29,241 nucleotides of DNA from Candidatus Fermentibacterota bacterium. GTDB taxonomy: Bacteria > JAFGKV01. Positions 5,146 to 13,082 of this stretch are shown here, piece by piece. How positions within the stretch are numbered: the first letter of the stretch is position 1; each line of letters starts with the position of its first letter. Location: contig JAFGKV010000078.1 in NCBI GenBank assembly GCA_016928395.1, forward strand, positions 1 through 29,241, read 5' to 3'. The notes below the pieces were generated by a model. The model saw only the letters and a list, made by a program, of their open reading frames with translations. It was not told the DNA's origin and ran no database searches. Made by a program: the position numbers and the translations under genes.

Positions 5146-5562
5146 TTACCGCAGGAGCACCTTGAAAGTCGCCGCGCCCTCCTCGGCACAGAGGAGTTCC
5201 AACGGGCGGACCTCACCCGGGGAGACGAACACCTGTGTCCAATCTACGGTAGCGTCCAGGAGAGAACCCGACGGATCGAAGAATCGGGCCTTGACCTCGA
5301 TCATCTCTTGGGACCGCCCACCGTTGCGAATCCAGACCGTGAGATTCATCCGACCATACGCATTGAGGGCATGTTGGATCTTGGGCACCTCGATCCCCGG
5401 GTGCTGAACGGTCATGACGATCTCGAAGGATGGATCCGCACTCTCCACTCTCACCACTGGAATAGAAGCCGATCCGCCGTCCCAGGTTCGGGTGGCCGAC
5501 GACCCTCGCATGCCCGCGCAGGCGAGGAGACACAGCAGTGCAATGCACGTTGTCCTACCCAT
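5146..5562 (-). CDS. Small lipoprotein (139 aa, lipobox LLAC), last gene of the wzm-wzt unit.
   Basis: Signal peptide MGRTTCIALLCLLAC^AG. A strong AGGAGG lies 6 nt upstream of ATG at 5562. The start overlaps the 3' end of wzt by 8 nt. The ORF-track start at 5631 would lack a signal peptide and overlap wzt more deeply. Confidence 0.6.
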   Translation of the reverse strand: MGRTTCIALLCLLACAGMRGSSATRTWDGGSASIPVVRVESADPSFEIVMTVQHPGIEVPKIQHALNAYGRMNLTVWIRNGGRSQEMIEVKARFFDPSGSLLDATVDWTQVFVSPGEVRPLELLCAEEGAATFKVLLR

Positions 5563-6802
5563 GGGATACCTCCTGCTCTCTGTCAGACGGGGAGAATGAT
5601 TCCTCGTGGCGGTGAAACCAGCTTCCGGCAAGATTCACTACCCCTTCCTTCTCGCGAGTACCTTCCTTGCCCACTCTGAACCGGTACATGGTGTCATGGT
5701 GATCGTAGGGATGCCGGATGCTCTGGTCATATACAGCCGCCGACAGAAAATAGACCCCGGGAAGCAAAGGAAGCCGGTCGACGTGGAACTCGACCGACCC
5801 CGGGCCGGCAACCCTCCCAATATTCAACCCACCCGTGGCCGTATTGGGTCCCGACACGTGTACCCCGTCAAGGCGATGGATGCCAATGCCAAACACCGGA
5901 TGATCAATGGGAACATGGGCGCGATACTCGATTCTCACCGTGAACGGTTTCCCGGTGAGCGGCAGATCCTCCTCGCCACCTTCGCCGTGAATCGCCACGC
6001 CTTGAATCTCGATTTCGCGGCTGCCCCATCTCGTGCCGTGTTCGTCTGGATTCGATACCGTCTGCGATTTGTCAGCAGACGCCATATAGGCATTCACCAC
6101 TGACTCCGCCTTGCCGGAGGCCGCAATGGCACCATGTTCCAGCCAGATGGCGCTATGGCACGTTTGTCGTACCTGCGCCATGTCGTGGGTCACCAGAACC
6201 ACGCATTTCCCCGCGGCCCGTAGTGCGTCGATCTTCTCCAGGCACCGCCGCTGAAACTCTTCATCGCCCACCGCCAGAACCTCATCCACCAGAAGCACCT
6301 CGGGATCTAGGTGGATGGCAATGGAGAACCCCAGGCGCATGAGCATGCCCGACGAGTAGTACTTCAGAGGGCTGTCTATGAACTCACGGACTCCCGAGAA
6401 CGCAACGATCGCGTCGCGCTTTTGGGCAACTTCGGATGGCCCCATTCCTAACAATGCCCCATTTAAGTCAATGTTCTCCAAGCCAGTGAGTTCAGGGTGA
6501 AAACCGGCCGCCAGGTCCAGTAGCGCACCAACCCGTCCCTGGGTCTGAATCGACCCATTGGTGGGCTCCATCACGCCCGCGATGAGACGCAGGAGCGTGC
6601 TCTTCCCCGACCCGTTTGAGCCAAGCACTCCGAAGACTTCTCCTGCATGAACACGGAACGAAACATCCCGCAGCGCCCAGAGTTCATCGACTGTGCCTCC
6701 CCGCCACCTGGTCCGGATGAAGCGTTCCCGCAAACTGGTAGGCCGGTGATGCTCCAACGCGAAACGCTTGGCCACACGGTCTACCACCACGGGGGCCGTC
6801 AT
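5555..6802 (-). CDS. wzt: Polysaccharide ABC exporter ATP-binding protein Wzt, with a C-terminal carbohydrate-binding (Wzt_C-like) domain.
   Basis: Walker A GSNGSGKST, ABC signature YSSGMLMRLGF, Walker B LLVDEVLAVGD and an H-loop VTHDM. A C-terminal beta-rich extension of about 160 aa follows. The ATG overlaps the wzm stop in a tcat/ATGA arrangement at 6799-6802. Confidence 0.85.
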   Translation of the reverse strand: MTAPVVVDRVAKRFALEHHRPTSLRERFIRTRWRGGTVDELWALRDVSFRVHAGEVFGVLGSNGSGKSTLLRLIAGVMEPTNGSIQTQGRVGALLDLAAGFHPELTGLENIDLNGALLGMGPSEVAQKRDAIVAFSGVREFIDSPLKYYSSGMLMRLGFSIAIHLDPEVLLVDEVLAVGDEEFQRRCLEKIDALRAAGKCVVLVTHDMAQVRQTCHSAIWLEHGAIAASGKAESVVNAYMASADKSQTVSNPDEHGTRWGSREIEIQGVAIHGEGGEEDLPLTGKPFTVRIEYRAHVPIDHPVFGIGIHRLDGVHVSGPNTATGGLNIGRVAGPGSVEFHVDRLPLLPGVYFLSAAVYDQSIRHPYDHHDTMYRFRVGKEGTREKEGVVNLAGSWFHRHEESFSPSDREQEVSHG

Positions 6803-7644
6803 AGTTCCTCAAGAAAGAAACGTTGGCGCCAACTGAAGAATCCCCATCCCGCCAGCAGGACAAGACCGGAGAGGGCACAGGCGACCACGCCCCACAGACG
6901 CAGGTCAATGGCTGGAGTGGGAATGTTCATAAGCGCCGAACGATAGACCATCATCAGGGTTGCCATCGGATTCAGGAAGTAGGCGGCTGCCAACGCCCGT
7001 GGAGCGGTATCCAGAATCATGTGGGGTGCGTAGAACACCGGGCAAAGGTAGAACCAGCCGAACAGCACTACTTCCAGAATCACACCGACGTCGCGGGCGT
7101 AGACGTTGGCTGCTGCCACGAACATGGCCAGTCCTGCCAGTAGTGCCACCTGGCAGACTATGGCGCCTGGCAACATGAGGAGGCGAATGCCCGGGGCGAT
7201 GCCTGAGAAGGCGAGGTACCCCAAGAGGGGGATCAGAGCCAGCACGAAGTTGACGCCATTAGAGAGCACTACGGCCAGGGGGAGCACCTCCCGGGGAAAA
7301 GCAACCTTGTGCATCAGGCTGGCAGCATCCACCACGGATCGGACCGACGTCGAAAGACTCGTCGCCACGAATAGCCAAGGAAGATACCCGCAGAGGATAT
7401 AGGCTGGATAGTGGGGAATGCCCTCATTGAACCTGCCCACATAGCTGAACACGACTGCCAGTACCATCATCATCAGAAACGGGTGCAACAGAGACCAGAC
7501 AACACCGAGCACGCTATTCTTGTACCTAGCCTTGAGATCTCGCCGGGCAAGCTGAATCAGAAGATGCCTATAGAGCCAGATCCGAGGCACAGGAAATCCG
7601 CGGTCCGTGCCACCGCTCGGCGAGGGCACACTCACGGGGACCAC
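6799..7644 (-). CDS. wzm: ABC-2 type polysaccharide exporter permease Wzm.
   Basis: N-terminal LIQLARRDLKARYKNSVLGVVWSLLHPFLMMMVLAVVF is the canonical Wzm/KpsM/TagG motif. The rest shows a six-TM hydropathy pattern. Confidence 0.8.
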   Translation of the reverse strand: MVPVSVPSPSGGTDRGFPVPRIWLYRHLLIQLARRDLKARYKNSVLGVVWSLLHPFLMMMVLAVVFSYVGRFNEGIPHYPAYILCGYLPWLFVATSLSTSVRSVVDAASLMHKVAFPREVLPLAVVLSNGVNFVLALIPLLGYLAFSGIAPGIRLLMLPGAIVCQVALLAGLAMFVAAANVYARDVGVILEVVLFGWFYLCPVFYAPHMILDTAPRALAAAYFLNPMATLMMVYRSALMNIPTPAIDLRLWGVVACALSGLVLLAGWGFFSWRQRFFLEEL

Positions 7645-11170: not shown

Positions 11171-12102
11171 CCGCCACCCTCCCGGGTCAGCCAGAACTGG
11201 AGGATATCGCGCAGAGACTGTTCAATCGATAGGGTCGGTTCCCAGCCGGTAGCCTGGTAGAACGCGGAGGGATCTCCGACCATGTTTTCGATGTCCGTGG
11301 GTCGAATCCGGGCCGGGTCGACCTGAACTTGGATCTCATGGCCTGACAGAGCAATGAGCGTGTCCAGTATGTGCCCTATGGAGACCGATCGTCCCGTGCA
11401 CACATTGAAAGGACCCTGGCCCGCATGGGACTCCGCCAGCATCGTATACGCCGAGACGACGTCGCGAACATCCATGAAGTCCCTGCGGACGGTCAGGTTA
11501 CCCACCCGTACCCGGGGAGGAGACTTCCCCAGAGCAATCCGGGCGATTTGACGGGCGAACGAGGAGGTGACAAACGTATCAGGCTGGCCGGGTCCCATCT
11601 GGCTGAAGGGTCGCACGACAGTGGGATGGAGACCCCCGATCCTCCCGAAGTAGCGCGCCACCTGCTCGGAGCAGGCCTTGGTAACCCCGTACAGATTGCG
11701 GGGGGCGATCGGCTCACCCTCGCAGATCGGCAGCCTTTGAGGAGAAACAGAACCGTACACCTCACCCGTGCTCACGATCACGACAGTCTCAGCACTCCCA
11801 GTGCAGGCGCTCAGAAGGTGTACGAGCCCAGTGACATTCGCTGCGAAGGCGCGCCCAGGATCCGCTTGCACGGCCGGCACATGGCTGATGGCCGCGAGGT
11901 GTATGACTCCGTCTGGCTGCGCCGCGTTGACGAGCGCCGAGACCGACTGGGGAGAGATCAGATCCGTTTGAATCCAGGCCACTCCTTCGATGTCAGGATG
12001 GGCAGCGAGATAGGTCCCGGTTACCTGGTGACCACGCCGCAGAAGATGCGGAAGAAGATGGCCTCCGACAAACCCCTCCGCCCCCGTGACAATCAGGCGC
12101 AC
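11167..12102 (-). CDS. rmd: NAD(P)-dependent GDP-4-keto-6-deoxy-D-mannose reductase-like SDR (Rmd-like; a GDP-fucose synthase alternative cannot be excluded).
   Basis: Rossmann motif [25 protein letters not shown] and an extended-SDR fold. It lies between gmd and manC, as in the P. aeruginosa CPA locus. Proposed GTG start at 12102. The ORF-track start at 12186 would overlap gmd by 94 nt. Confidence 0.65.
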
Positions 12103-13082
12103 GGCGGCCCCGTCGCCTTCAGGCGACACAGATCGGCTTCGACCATCATCCGGATGAGATCCTCGAAGCTCACCTGTGGCTTCCAATCCAGTATGCGCTG
12201 GGCCTTGGACGGATCGCCAACCAGGTAGTCCACTTCCGCTGGTCTTAGGAATGCTGAGTCAATGACGACATAGTCGCGCCAGTCGAGATCTTGGCATCCG
12301 AACGCTGTCTCCAACAGACGTTCCACCGAATGGGTCTGCCCCGTCGCAACAACAAAGTCGTCGGGCTCATCCTGCTGCAGCATGCGCCACATGGCCTCGA
12401 CGTAGTCACCGGCGAATCCCCAGTCTCGCTTGGCAGACACGTTGCCCATGCGCAGCTCTCGAGCCATCCCGAGCTTGATCCGGGCTACACCGTTAGAGAC
12501 CTTGCGCGTAACGAACTCGAGCCCCCTCCGGGGTGACTCGTGATTGAAAAGGATGCCGGAACTCGCATGCAGATTGTAGCTTTCACGGTAGTTCACCGTG
12601 ATCCAGTGGCCGTACACCTTGGCCACGCCATACGGGCTTCTGGGGTAAAATGGGGTCAGCTCACTCTGCGGCGTCTCGCGTACCTTCCCGAACATCTCGC
12701 TGGAGGAGGCTTGGTAAAACCGTGCCCGGGGCGCGACAATGCGCAGTGCCTCCAGCATCCGCGTCACACCCAGAGCAGTGAACTCAGCCGTAAGTACCGG
12801 CTGTTTCCAGCTTGTGGGGACGAAGCTCATGGCCGCCAGGTTGTACACCTCATCAGGAGCGGCGTGGGAAACAATGTCGATGAGCGACATCTGATCCAGT
12901 AGGTCGCCCTGCACGATCTCCACGGTCTCCAAGAGGTGCTGGATTCTCCCGAAGTTCTCCATGCTGAGCCGTCGTACCATCCCGACGACTCTATATCCCT
13001 TCCGGAGCAGTAGCTCGGCGAGGTAGGAACCATCCTGTCCTGTGATCCCAGTTATGAGCGCGGTCTTCATGTTGCCTGTCAC
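12093..13082 (-). CDS. gmd: GDP-mannose 4,6-dehydratase.
   Basis: [34 protein letters not shown] and a conserved Gmd core (…YNLAAMSFV…[19 protein letters not shown]…). AAGGAG lies upstream. Confidence 0.9.

What the first reader, a model, noticed from the sequence alone, without database searches (positions are those of the whole stretch)
5146..13082. CPA-like GDP-D-rhamnose / Wzm-Wzt locus interrupted by a c-di-GMP-producing two-component pair, without glycosyltransferases
The gene order gmd - rmd-like - manC(wbpW-like) - [GAF histidine kinase - REC-GGDEF] - wzm - wzt(+C-terminal CBM) - lipoprotein sits on one strand. Tight or overlapping junctions: ATGA overlaps at rmd/manC and wzm/wzt, a 13-nt overlap at GGDEF/wzm, an 8-nt overlap at wzt/lipoprotein, a 10-nt overlap at gmd/rmd (GTG start 12102) and a 12-nt gap between HK and RR. 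In P. aeruginosa the common polysaccharide antigen locus is rmd-gmd-wbpW-wzm-wzt-wbpXYZ (established). Here the same precursor and export modules are present but two things differ. First, the three rhamnosyltransferases are absent from the window. Second, a sensor kinase and an I-site-competent diguanylate cyclase are inserted between the precursor genes and the exporter and appear translationally coupled to wzm. This suggests export, or synthesis, of a GDP-6-deoxyhexose-based homopolymer that is wired directly to local c-di-GMP production. That is an arrangement normally associated with synthase-dependent EPS systems, not ABC-transporter-dependent O-antigen-type pathways.
Basis: partly seen in the sequence, partly recalled or inferred. 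Interest (0 to 1): 0.7.

Follow-up and report, generated by a model that had tools for sequence, protein, structure and literature searches.

The report
Sugar-export operon with built-in c-di-GMP switch
An uncultured digester bacterium (Candidatus Fermentibacteria) keeps a sensor kinase and a c-di-GMP-making enzyme inside the operon that makes and exports a rhamnose-type surface sugar polymer; this layout is conserved in its lineage and not described elsewhere, but how the signal acts on the sugar pathway is unknown.

Summary
On the minus strand, 13082-5146, eight genes form one tightly packed operon: gmd, rmd, manC (no isomerase half), a membrane-anchored histidine kinase with a weak GAF-like sensor, a REC-GGDEF diguanylate cyclase with intact GGDEF and RxxD I-site, wzm, wzt (with Wzt_C domain) and a 138-aa DUF1425/YcfL-like lipoprotein.

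The window is from Candidatus Fermentibacteria. The same order recurs in at least five diverged lineages of that group (Wzt 63-85% identical), always after valS, with different genes downstream. No glycosyltransferase lies in the 29-kb window. In contrast, 4 of 4 more distant Wzt loci have glycosyltransferases beside wzm/wzt and no kinase or cyclase. None of 80 unrelated REC-GGDEF loci has wzm or manC nearby.

A more distant relative has gmd-rmd-uppP-manC-manB-kinase-cyclase without wzm/wzt. The kinase/cyclase pair therefore travels with the precursor genes and is not simply an insertion before the exporter.

No c-di-GMP receptor (PilZ, riboswitch) was found in the operon, so direct wiring remains inference. 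Verdict: a new variant of a known kind, moderately interesting.

The parts
13083..13235 (-). valS-gmd intergenic region (153 nt); presumed promoter region of the operon; AAGGAG ribosome-binding site 5 nt before the gmd GTG
   Evidence: Sequence read. No sigma-70-like site lies in this stretch. It is not conserved at DNA level among orthologous loci. No Rfam match.
12093..13082 (-). gmd, GDP-mannose 4,6-dehydratase (329 aa)
   Evidence: TIGR01472 at 425.1 bits (cut-off 415); PF16363 E 7e-130. 80-87% identical in orthologous loci.
11167..12102 (-). rmd-like GDP-4-keto-6-deoxy-D-mannose reductase (311 aa, GTG start overlapping the gmd stop by 10 nt)
   Evidence: Best PDB matches are the Rmd structures 2pk3 and 6x3b, E about 5e-57, aligned end to end. 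The Fcl equivalog scores 36 bits against a cut-off of 500.
10052..11170 (-). manC, mannose-1-phosphate guanylyltransferase without the phosphomannose isomerase half (372 aa; ATGA overlap with rmd)
   Evidence: PF00483 plus PF22640. TIGR01479 matched only over positions 3-352 of 467.
8577..10010 (-). Sensor histidine kinase (477 aa): one N-terminal transmembrane helix, coiled coil, GAF-like cytoplasmic domain (about aa 80-190), HisKA, HATPase_c
   Evidence: HisKA E 8e-22 and HATPase_c E 1e-30. GAF_3 E about 1e-3, below cut-off, recurring in 4 of 5 orthologues. H-box SHELRTPL invariant. Strong AAAGGAGG ribosome-binding site in the 41-nt gap after manC.
7632..8564 (-). REC-GGDEF response regulator / diguanylate cyclase (310 aa), 12 nt after the kinase stop
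   Evidence: PF00072 E 6e-26 and PF00990 E 5e-39. D58, K111, R216-x-x-D219 (I-site) and GG[DE]EF are invariant in 13-14 orthologues.
6799..7644 (-). wzm, ABC-2 permease (278 aa from GTG 7635, a 4-nt GTGA overlap with the cyclase stop; or 281 aa from GTG 7644)
   Evidence: PF01061 E 2e-16. Start positions.
5555..6802 (-). wzt, ABC ATPase with C-terminal carbohydrate-binding domain (415 aa; ATGA overlap with wzm)
   Evidence: PF00005 plus PF14524 Wzt_C at 92 bits. Best PDB match is full-length Aquifex aeolicus Wzt, 8dku/7k2t, E 6e-63.
5146..5562 (-). Small lipoprotein (138 aa), DUF1425/YcfL-like beta-sandwich; 8-nt overlap with the wzt stop
5079..5091 (-). Weak terminator-like hairpin plus T-rich tail about 55 nt after the lipoprotein stop; likely operon end
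   Evidence: Consensus scan, with fewer sites than in shuffles, so this is only suggestive. Synteny breaks here in all orthologous loci.

Best explanation
This is a conserved, lineage-specific eight-gene operon of Candidatus Fermentibacteria, a diderm of the FCB group.

Shown:
- It encodes GDP-mannose synthesis (ManC).
- It encodes conversion of GDP-mannose to a GDP-6-deoxy-D-hexose, most likely GDP-D-rhamnose (Gmd + Rmd).
- It encodes a Wzm/Wzt ABC exporter of the type that recognises a capped, lipid-linked glycan through its C-terminal carbohydrate-binding domain.
- It encodes a small DUF1425-like lipoprotein.
- Embedded between manC and wzm is a membrane-anchored, cytoplasm-sensing histidine kinase and its cognate REC-GGDEF diguanylate cyclase. 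Both are translationally coupled to the exporter.

Inferred mechanism:
- The kinase senses an intracellular or membrane-proximal cue through its GAF-like domain.
- It phosphorylates Asp58 of the regulator.
- The regulator dimerises and makes c-di-GMP, self-limited by the RxxD I-site.
- Co-transcription makes this c-di-GMP source appear together with, and probably next to, the machinery that supplies and exports the rhamnan-type glycan. Glycan output is thereby coordinated with the c-di-GMP state.

Still unidentified: the c-di-GMP receptor, the glycosyltransferases and the chain terminator are encoded elsewhere.
For: - Gene identities.
- Overlapping or near-overlapping junctions with ribosome-binding sites and no internal terminator.
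- The same order valS-gmd-rmd-manC-HK-RR-wzm-wzt-lipoprotein occurs in L002 (GCA_900174595.1), L003 (GCA_030620115.1), L004 and L005/L006/L089/L090. Wzt identity is 63-72% and cyclase identity 56-65%. Downstream flanks differ.
- The cyclase-to-wzm spacing is always between a 4-nt overlap and a 15-nt gap. The kinase-to-cyclase gap is 8-14 nt.
- Catalytic, phospho-acceptor and I-site residues are invariant.
- In a distant relative (cyclase 42% identical) the pair follows gmd-rmd-uppP-manC-manB on one strand.
- The association is not generic. 0 of 80 unrelated REC-GGDEF loci carry wzm, manC or the lipoprotein within 10 kb. 0 of 4 more distant Wzt_C loci carry a kinase or GGDEF gene.
- Fermentibacteria (Hyd24-12) are reported as diderms with lipopolysaccharide (PMC5030696).
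Against: - No c-di-GMP receptor domain (PilZ, MshEN, degenerate GGDEF/EAL) is present in any operon protein, and there is no riboswitch.
- No glycosyltransferase, initiating transferase, terminator or ligase is linked, so the exporter's substrate is not defined.
- All evidence for coupling is gene order in metagenome-assembled genomes. There are no expression or biochemical data.
- The distant variant lacks wzm/wzt, so the link may be to precursor supply rather than to export.
- The GAF assignment is sub-threshold, and the single-sequence structure model of the sensor was unusable.
Confidence: 0.55

Rival explanations
1. Passenger two-component system. The kinase and cyclase serve general c-di-GMP signalling, for example type IV pili or aggregation. 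They sit in this operon only for historical reasons or for convenient co-expression downstream of valS, with no specific functional tie to the glycan pathway.
For: - No receptor is present in the operon.
- GGDEF genes are scattered in most genomes.
- All loci with the full operon come from one candidate phylum, so shared ancestry alone could explain part of the synteny.
Against: - The order and tight spacing survive divergence to about 50-60% protein identity, while the downstream flank is reshuffled in every lineage.
- An independent, more distant locus again joins the pair to gmd-rmd-manC-manB.
- The background rate of such linkage is 0 of 80.
Confidence: 0.25
2. Precursor-centred control. 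The pair regulates, or responds to, GDP-sugar/GTP metabolism. Examples are c-di-GMP or the kinase acting on ManC, Gmd or Rmd, or the GAF-like domain sensing a nucleotide sugar. In this reading the exporter is only a downstream neighbour in Fermentibacteria.
For: - The distant variant keeps gmd-rmd-uppP-manC-manB-kinase-cyclase but has no wzm/wzt within 10 kb.
- ManC and the cyclase both consume GTP (established biochemistry).
Against: - In all Fermentibacteria loci the cyclase is physically coupled to wzm, from a 4-nt overlap to a 15-nt gap, rather than to manC, which lies 36-57 nt from the kinase.
- c-di-GMP control of GDP-mannose-pathway enzymes is not known to me and was not specifically searched for in the paper library; the papers retrieved by the searches for other links did not mention it.
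Confidence: 0.15
3. The exported polymer is not a lipopolysaccharide O-antigen of the CPA type. It could be another glycoconjugate, such as an S-layer or surface-protein glycan as in Aneurinibacillus, or a capsule-like polymer. Alternatively, the reductase makes GDP-6-deoxy-D-talose instead of GDP-D-rhamnose.
For: - No WaaL ligase, Lpt or O-antigen glycosyltransferase genes are linked.
- Rmd homologues are only about 40% identical to the two characterised enzymes.
- In Aneurinibacillus, D-rhamnose occurs in S-layer glycans and ABC transporters are discussed for S-layer glycan export (PMC2943079, listed; only its title, abstract and term counts were seen, and the pathway details are from my own knowledge).
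Against: - The organism group is described as diderm with lipopolysaccharide.
- The Wzt_C-type exporter is typical of O-polysaccharide pathways.
- This rival concerns the product, not the architecture, and is compatible with the main explanation.
Confidence: 0.3

Closest known systems
Pseudomonas aeruginosa common polysaccharide antigen (CPA) locus rmd-gmd-wbpW-wzm-wzt-wbpXYZ
   Same: - The Gmd + Rmd + GDP-mannose pyrophosphorylase precursor set.
- A Wzm/Wzt exporter whose ATPase carries a C-terminal carbohydrate-binding domain.
- All genes on one strand.
   Different: - Gene order is gmd-rmd-manC.
- ManC lacks the isomerase half that WbpW has.
- No rhamnosyltransferases or methyltransferases are linked.
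- A kinase and a REC-GGDEF cyclase lie between manC and wzm.
- A DUF1425-like lipoprotein is appended.
- The host is a candidate phylum of the FCB group.
Canonical Wzt_C-type ABC-transporter-dependent glycan loci (e.g. E. coli O9a, Aquifex aeolicus WzmWzt; comparators L091-L094 here)
   Same: - Overlapping wzm/wzt pair.
- Wzt_C domain.
- 42-50% Wzt identity to the comparators.
   Different: The comparators have 2-6 glycosyltransferase genes directly adjacent, and in L094 a methyltransferase-GT fusion. They have no kinase or cyclase. The Fermentibacteria operon is the reverse.
WspR / PleD / DgcR-type REC-GGDEF cyclases that drive exopolysaccharide production
   Same: - REC phospho-acceptor Asp.
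- Coiled-coil linker.
- Active GGDEF.
- RxxD I-site.
- Cognate kinase encoded next door.
- The NCBIfam PleD and DgcR models are the top hits, below their equivalog cut-offs.
   Different: - Known targets are synthase-dependent or Wzx/Wzy-dependent polymers with identified receptors (PelD, FleQ, Alg44, BcsA).
- Here the neighbours are GDP-sugar enzymes and an ABC exporter, and no receptor is known.
SadC-WarA link between c-di-GMP signalling and O-antigen in P. aeruginosa
   Same: A diguanylate cyclase is connected to the lipopolysaccharide O-antigen machinery. [quoted passage not shown]
   Different: - There the genes are unlinked to the O-antigen locus.
- SadC is not a response regulator.
- The effect is on modal length of the heteropolymeric O-antigen.
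- Here the cyclase is a fixed member of the precursor/export operon.
DUF1425 / YcfL lipoproteins (3o0l; Campylobacter Cj0090, 4gio)
   Same: - Small lipoprotein.
- Weak Pfam DUF1425 signal in the protein and in its orthologue.
   Different: - Sequence similarity is below the Pfam cut-off.
- The orthologue group is tiny: 2 clusters among 1.84 billion representatives.
- It is always found after wzt.
- The function of the whole family is unknown.

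Membership tests
GDP-D-rhamnose (gdp) pathway: Gmd + Rmd | GDP-mannose 4,6-dehydratase equivalog | tested here: met
   TIGR01472 at 425.1 bits against a cut-off of 415.
GDP-D-rhamnose (gdp) pathway: Gmd + Rmd | Reductase homologous over its full length to characterised Rmd, and not Fcl | tested here: met
   2pk3 and 6x3b at E about 5e-57, aligned over residues 1-307. GDPFucSynFcl scores 36 bits against a cut-off of 500.
GDP-D-rhamnose (gdp) pathway: Gmd + Rmd | Stereochemistry of C4 reduction (D-rhamnose rather than 6-deoxy-D-talose) | not testable with these tools
   Needs product analysis of the enzyme.
Bifunctional PMI-GMP (WbpW/AlgA/ManC type) | Both the guanylyltransferase half and the C-terminal cupin isomerase half | tested here: not met
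   TIGR01479 matched only over positions 3-352 of 467, at 280 bits against a cut-off of 373. The protein is 372 aa. Only the guanylyltransferase part is present.
ABC-transporter-dependent O-polysaccharide export (Wzm/Wzt with carbohydrate-binding domain) | ABC-2 permease plus ATPase with Wzt_C domain, encoded as an overlapping pair | tested here: met
   PF01061, PF00005, and PF14524 at 92 bits. ATGA overlap. Best PDB hit is full-length Aquifex Wzt.
ABC-transporter-dependent O-polysaccharide export (Wzm/Wzt with carbohydrate-binding domain) | Cognate glycosyltransferases and a chain terminator in the same locus | tested here: not met
   No GT family hit in the window. None within 10 kb in L003-L005. 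One lone GT2 lies 8 kb away in L002. The comparators all have them.
ABC-transporter-dependent O-polysaccharide export (Wzm/Wzt with carbohydrate-binding domain) | Undecaprenyl-diphosphate-linked, end-capped substrate ligated to lipid A-core | not testable with these tools
   Needs biochemistry or the rest of the genome.
Active REC-GGDEF diguanylate cyclase (WspR/PleD type) | Phospho-acceptor Asp and conserved Lys in REC; GG[DE]EF active site; RxxD I-site five residues upstream | tested here: met
   D58, K111, R216/D219 and GGDEF are invariant in the orthologues. PF00072 and PF00990 pass their cut-offs.
Active REC-GGDEF diguanylate cyclase (WspR/PleD type) | Cyclase activity stimulated by phosphorylation | not testable with these tools
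   Needs an enzyme assay.
c-di-GMP-gated polysaccharide secretion systems (BcsA, Alg44, PelD, PgaCD type) | A c-di-GMP receptor module (PilZ, degenerate GGDEF/EAL, I-site domain) within the secretion machinery | tested here: not met
   No such Pfam domain in Wzm, Wzt, the lipoprotein, ManC, Gmd or Rmd at E <= 1e-3. No c-di-GMP riboswitch. The clade-specific residues in Wzt form no recognisable motif.
GAF-domain sensor kinase | GAF domain passing the family threshold | tested here: inconclusive
   GAF_3 at 20 bits (cut-off 27) and GAF_2 at 18 bits. 4 of 5 orthologues give the same weak hit. The kinase next to P0134 has precomputed weak GAF hits. A PDB profile search found nothing. The AlphaFold2 single-sequence model had pLDDT 46.
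DUF1425 / YcfL lipoprotein | Lipobox, DUF1425 profile match and the family fold | tested here: inconclusive

The most novel reading that the evidence does not exclude
c-di-GMP made by the operon-encoded cyclase directly gates an ABC-transporter-dependent glycan pathway at the protein level. It could do so by binding Wzt/Wzm, a GDP-sugar enzyme, or an unlinked rhamnosyltransferase or terminator. This would be the first Wzm/Wzt O-polysaccharide-type system under local, post-translational c-di-GMP control. So far that mode of control is known only for synthase-dependent systems and some Wzx/Wzy systems.
Probability: 0.2. Interest if true: 0.7.

Novelty: new variant of a known kind. Interest (0 to 1): 0.45.

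Why it matters
c-di-GMP is the main bacterial switch for making surface and matrix polysaccharides. Its known direct targets are synthase-type machines (cellulose, alginate, Pel, PNAG) and some transcription factors. The ABC-transporter route used for many O-antigens and capsules is generally viewed as lacking such control.

This operon keeps a phosphorylation-activated cyclase welded between precursor enzymes and the Wzm/Wzt exporter across a whole candidate phylum. That gives a concrete, testable case for c-di-GMP control of the ABC route. It also gives a small set of proteins in which to look for a new receptor.

The locus extends the GDP-D-rhamnose pathway to Fermentibacteria. One survey with stringent criteria reported that pathway as essentially confined to Pseudomonas and Aneurinibacillus (bioRxiv 10.1101/854612). 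Fermentibacteria are abundant in anaerobic digesters. Their cell-surface biology is unexplored and may bear on aggregation and sludge properties.

Tried and rejected
- **Genome scan with the cyclase alignment.** It gave no new Fermentibacteria loci. I reused it as a background set, where 0 of 80 loci carry wzm, manC or the lipoprotein.
- **Metagenome scan with the kinase sensor alignment.** Only 3 loci came back, all already-known Fermentibacteria types.
- **c-di-GMP riboswitch or other RNA element.** No Rfam hit at gathering score or at E <= 1. The upstream intergenic region is not conserved.
- **Structure of the kinase sensor.** The model had pLDDT 46 and was not used. A profile search of the sensor against PDB sequences found nothing.
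- **Clade-specific residues in Wzt as a hint of a nucleotide-binding site.** 25 scattered positions with no recognisable motif; not interpretable.
- **P0209, a 41%-identical cyclase.** Its context is unrelated, so I excluded it as a non-orthologue.
- **fcl reading of the second SDR gene.** Rejected.
- **GldA/GldF gliding transporter and TagGH teichoic-acid exporter readings of wzm/wzt.** Scores are far below the equivalog cut-offs, and the Wzt_C domain argues for the O-polysaccharide type.
- **Promoter and terminator scan.** Fewer hits than in shuffles and none at gene junctions. It is uninformative for an FCB-group organism, apart from showing no obvious terminator inside the operon.
- **Literature.** No paper in the library describes a cyclase gene inside a wzm/wzt or gmd/rmd operon.

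Full report
**Source and setting**

The Wzt protein of the window is 100% identical to an NCBI protein from a Candidatus Fermentibacteria bacterium, carried on a contig of exactly 29,241 bp. G+C is about 61% throughout, with no compositional break at the locus. The first ORF of the window carries a type IX secretion C-terminal sorting domain, which fits an FCB-group diderm. The only genomic paper on this group (Hyd24-12, PMC5030696) reports a diderm envelope with lipopolysaccharide, no flagella and type IV pili. It does not mention this locus, c-di-GMP or rhamnose.

**Check of the observation**

ORF listing and Pfam/NCBIfam scans confirm eight consecutive minus-strand genes downstream of valS (13236-15884).

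| Gene | Coordinates | Evidence |
|---|---|---|
| gmd | 12093-13082 | TIGR01472 at 425 bits, above the equivalog cut-off of 415 |
| rmd-like SDR | 11167-12102 | See next section |
| manC | 10052-11170 | NTP_transferase + ManC beta-helix; TIGR01479 matched only over its first 352 of 467 positions, so the isomerase half is missing |
| Histidine kinase | 8577-10010 | HisKA, HATPase_c |
| REC-GGDEF regulator | 7632-8564 | PF00072, PF00990 |
| wzm | 6799-7635/7644 | ABC2_membrane |
| wzt | 5555-6802 | ABC_tran + Wzt_C at 92 bits |
| Small ORF | 5146-5562 | Signal peptide and LLAC lipobox |

I read every junction from the sequence:
- AAGGAG, then 5 nt, then the GTG start of gmd.
- GTG 12102 overlaps the gmd stop by 10 nt.
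- ATGA overlap at rmd/manC.
- 41-nt gap with an AAAGGAGG ribosome-binding site before the kinase.
- 12-nt gap between kinase and regulator.
- ATGA overlap at wzm/wzt.
- ATGGGTAG, an 8-nt overlap, at wzt/lipoprotein.

For the regulator/wzm junction, both GTG 7644 (13-nt overlap) and GTG 7635 (GTGA, 4-nt overlap) are possible. An independent gene call on a second assembly of the same sequence (L001) and the orthologues favour the 4-nt overlap.

The consensus scan finds no terminator-like site at any internal junction.

**Identity of the parts**

*The second SDR.* It aligns end to end with the only two solved Rmd enzymes, Aneurinibacillus 2pk3 and 6x3b, at E about 5e-57. The GxxGxxG and YxxxK motifs are in place. 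The NCBIfam GDP-fucose synthase model gives 36 bits against a cut-off of 500. Sequence cannot distinguish GDP-D-rhamnose from GDP-6-deoxy-D-talose as the product.

*Wzt.* Its best PDB relatives are the full-length Aquifex aeolicus Wzt chains that include the carbohydrate-binding domain (8dku/7k2t, E 6e-63, residues 33-377).

*The regulator.* It has the REC acidic pocket, Asp58, Lys111, an intact GGDEF, and RKTD five residues upstream of it. All of these are invariant in 13-14 orthologues and relatives.

*The kinase.* It has one N-terminal hydrophobic helix and essentially no extracytoplasmic part, then a coiled coil, then a region of about 110 residues. That region hits three GAF models at E about 1e-3, below their cut-offs. 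4 of 5 orthologues repeat the hit at the same place, and the kinase of a distant relative has precomputed weak GAF hits. I call it GAF-like. A single-sequence AlphaFold2 model was too poor to use (pLDDT 46).

**Conservation**

The same string, (tyrS/trpS-type gene)-hypothetical-aroQ-valS-gmd-rmd-manC-kinase-regulator-wzm-wzt-lipoprotein, is found in:
- L002/L088: GCA_900174595.1, a 300-kb contig.
- L003: GCA_030620115.1.
- L004: a Logan assembly.
- L005/L006/L089/L090: ENA and JGI metagenomes.

Short contigs at 85% identity add further instances. Protein identities to the window are:

| Protein | Identity to window |
|---|---|
| Gmd | 74-87% |
| Rmd | 49-67% |
| ManC | 51-64% |
| Kinase | 59-80% |
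| Regulator | 56-65% |
| Wzm | 65-76% |
| Wzt | 63-72% |
| Lipoprotein | 56-68% |

The gene after the lipoprotein differs in every lineage: OPT transporter, Zip, SGNH hydrolase, or unknowns. The conserved block therefore ends there.

Junction spacing is also conserved:
- Regulator to wzm: from a 4-nt overlap to a 15-nt gap.
- Kinase to regulator: 8-14 nt gap.
- manC to kinase: 36-57 nt gap.
- wzm/wzt: 1-4 nt overlap.

**A variant that changes the reading**

The next-closest regulators (P0133/P0134, 42-44% identity) come after a steep drop from the orthologue group. P0134 lies in a one-strand string gmd-rmd-BacA(UppP)-manC-phosphomannomutase-(GAF) kinase-regulator. This is followed by opposite-strand genes, with no wzm/wzt within 10 kb (no DNA was available).

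The kinase/cyclase pair is therefore linked to GDP-6-deoxyhexose synthesis in two diverged groups, and to the exporter in one. This argues against a recent 'insertion' that interrupts a CPA-like locus. It argues for a functional tie whose core may be the precursor branch.

**Is the association unusual?**

- The 80 REC-GGDEF loci returned by the saturated genome scan come from Acidobacteriota, Pseudomonas, Planctomycetota and others. None has a wzm, manC or lipoprotein homologue within 10 kb at tblastn E <= 1e-3. Only 7 have any ABC ATPase similar to Wzt.
- Four Wzt_C-type loci from other phyla (42-50% Wzt identity) each have two to six glycosyltransferase genes directly beside wzm/wzt. One has a methyltransferase-GT fusion, typical of chain terminators. 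None has a kinase or GGDEF gene.
- In the Fermentibacteria loci no glycosyltransferase lies within the window (29 kb) or within 10 kb in L003-L005. L002 has a lone GT2 8 kb away, behind opposite-strand genes.
- Full-text searches found no paper describing a cyclase inside a wzm/wzt or gmd/rmd operon.
- The nearest described link between c-di-GMP and O-antigen is the unlinked SadC-WarA pair of P. aeruginosa (PMC8515127).

**How it most likely works**

*Shown:* the operon composition; the translational coupling; intact catalytic and regulatory motifs; lineage-wide conservation.

*Inferred:*
- ManC, Gmd and Rmd supply GDP-D-rhamnose or its C4 epimer.
- Unlinked transferases build a capped, lipid-linked glycan. 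Wzt recognises it through its C-terminal domain and exports it with Wzm.
- The DUF1425-like lipoprotein acts on the periplasmic side.
- The membrane-anchored kinase reads a cytoplasmic cue, phosphorylates the regulator and switches on c-di-GMP synthesis, limited by the I-site.
- Because the cyclase is made from the same transcript, and probably by coupled translation with Wzm, the signal source is produced with the machinery.

*Missing:* the receptor. No PilZ or comparable domain occurs in the operon, and no c-di-GMP riboswitch precedes it. Clade-specific Wzt residues do not form a known motif.

I put 0.55 on functional coupling of the pair to this glycan pathway, and 0.25 on a passenger role. 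Within the coupled readings, I hold a real possibility (0.15) that the target is precursor supply rather than export.

**Comparison and novelty**

The precursor and exporter modules are ordinary members of their families, and the cyclase is an ordinary WspR/PleD-type enzyme. What is not described is their fixed fusion into one operant unit, together with the consistent absence of glycosyltransferases and the presence of a private lipoprotein. That makes it a new variant of a known kind.

The locus fails the defining test of a c-di-GMP-gated secretion system, because no receptor module was found. It should therefore not be filed there, although it may work like one.

It also extends the GDP-D-rhamnose pathway to a candidate phylum. 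A survey with stringent criteria found that pathway only in Pseudomonas and Aneurinibacillus (bioRxiv 10.1101/854612).

**Score**

Interest is 0.45. This is a robust and conserved but purely genomic association, in uncultured organisms, with a clear set of experiments that could turn it into a first example of c-di-GMP control of the ABC-transporter route.

Noticed in passing
window 1402-2631 (+): A 409-aa protein combines an MshEN domain (PF05157, E 6e-15) with a DnaA-type AAA+ ATPase domain (PF00308, E 1e-41). The MshEN part has an N-terminal RLGTMLVEEQIITEHQLKEALQHQ motif resembling the c-di-GMP-binding MshEN motif. No DnaA DNA-binding domain was hit. It is a possible c-di-GMP receptor 2.5 kb beyond the operon end. 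It is not next to the operon in L002-L005.
   Followed up: partly
window 13236-15884 (-) versus L005 2567-5218, L089 and L090: The ValS encoded just upstream of the operon is 70-79% identical in L002/L003. It is only 34% identical over 890 residues in L005/L089/L090. Yet gene order is the same there and the adjacent Gmd is 80% identical. This looks like an in-place replacement by a different ValS type.
   Followed up: no
JGI sample 3300042731, contig of P0134 (no DNA held): A variant operon gmd-rmd-BacA/UppP-manC-phosphomannomutase-GAF kinase-REC-GGDEF without wzm/wzt, in an unidentified lineage. This may define a wider family of cyclase-linked GDP-6-deoxyhexose loci.
   Followed up: partly
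window 55-1236 (+): A secreted protein with PPC, FlgD-Ig-like and Por_Secre_tail (type IX secretion sorting) domains. This indicates a T9SS in this organism.
   Followed up: no
L002 18869-21221: In Fermentibacter-type contig FWPV01000097.1, an AmiA-like gene, a 442-aa GT2 and a DUF4922/GDPGP1_C (GDP-hexose phosphorylase-like) gene lie 8-10 kb beyond the operon. This is the only glycosyltransferase seen near any copy of the operon.
   Followed up: no
window 16634-17905 (-), 19125-20138 (-), 22186-22851 (+): Three sizeable ORFs with no Pfam hit even at E 0.1. The first is syntenic with a 418-430-aa (cut at the locus end in L002 and L003) hypothetical gene upstream of aroQ in L002, L003 and L005.
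   Followed up: no
window 22471-25538 (-) and 25671-29144 (+): Tandem TldD/PmbA metallopeptidase genes, and a 1157-aa alpha-amylase-family protein with CBM48 and Ig-like domains. These are ordinary genes and were not examined further.
   Followed up: no
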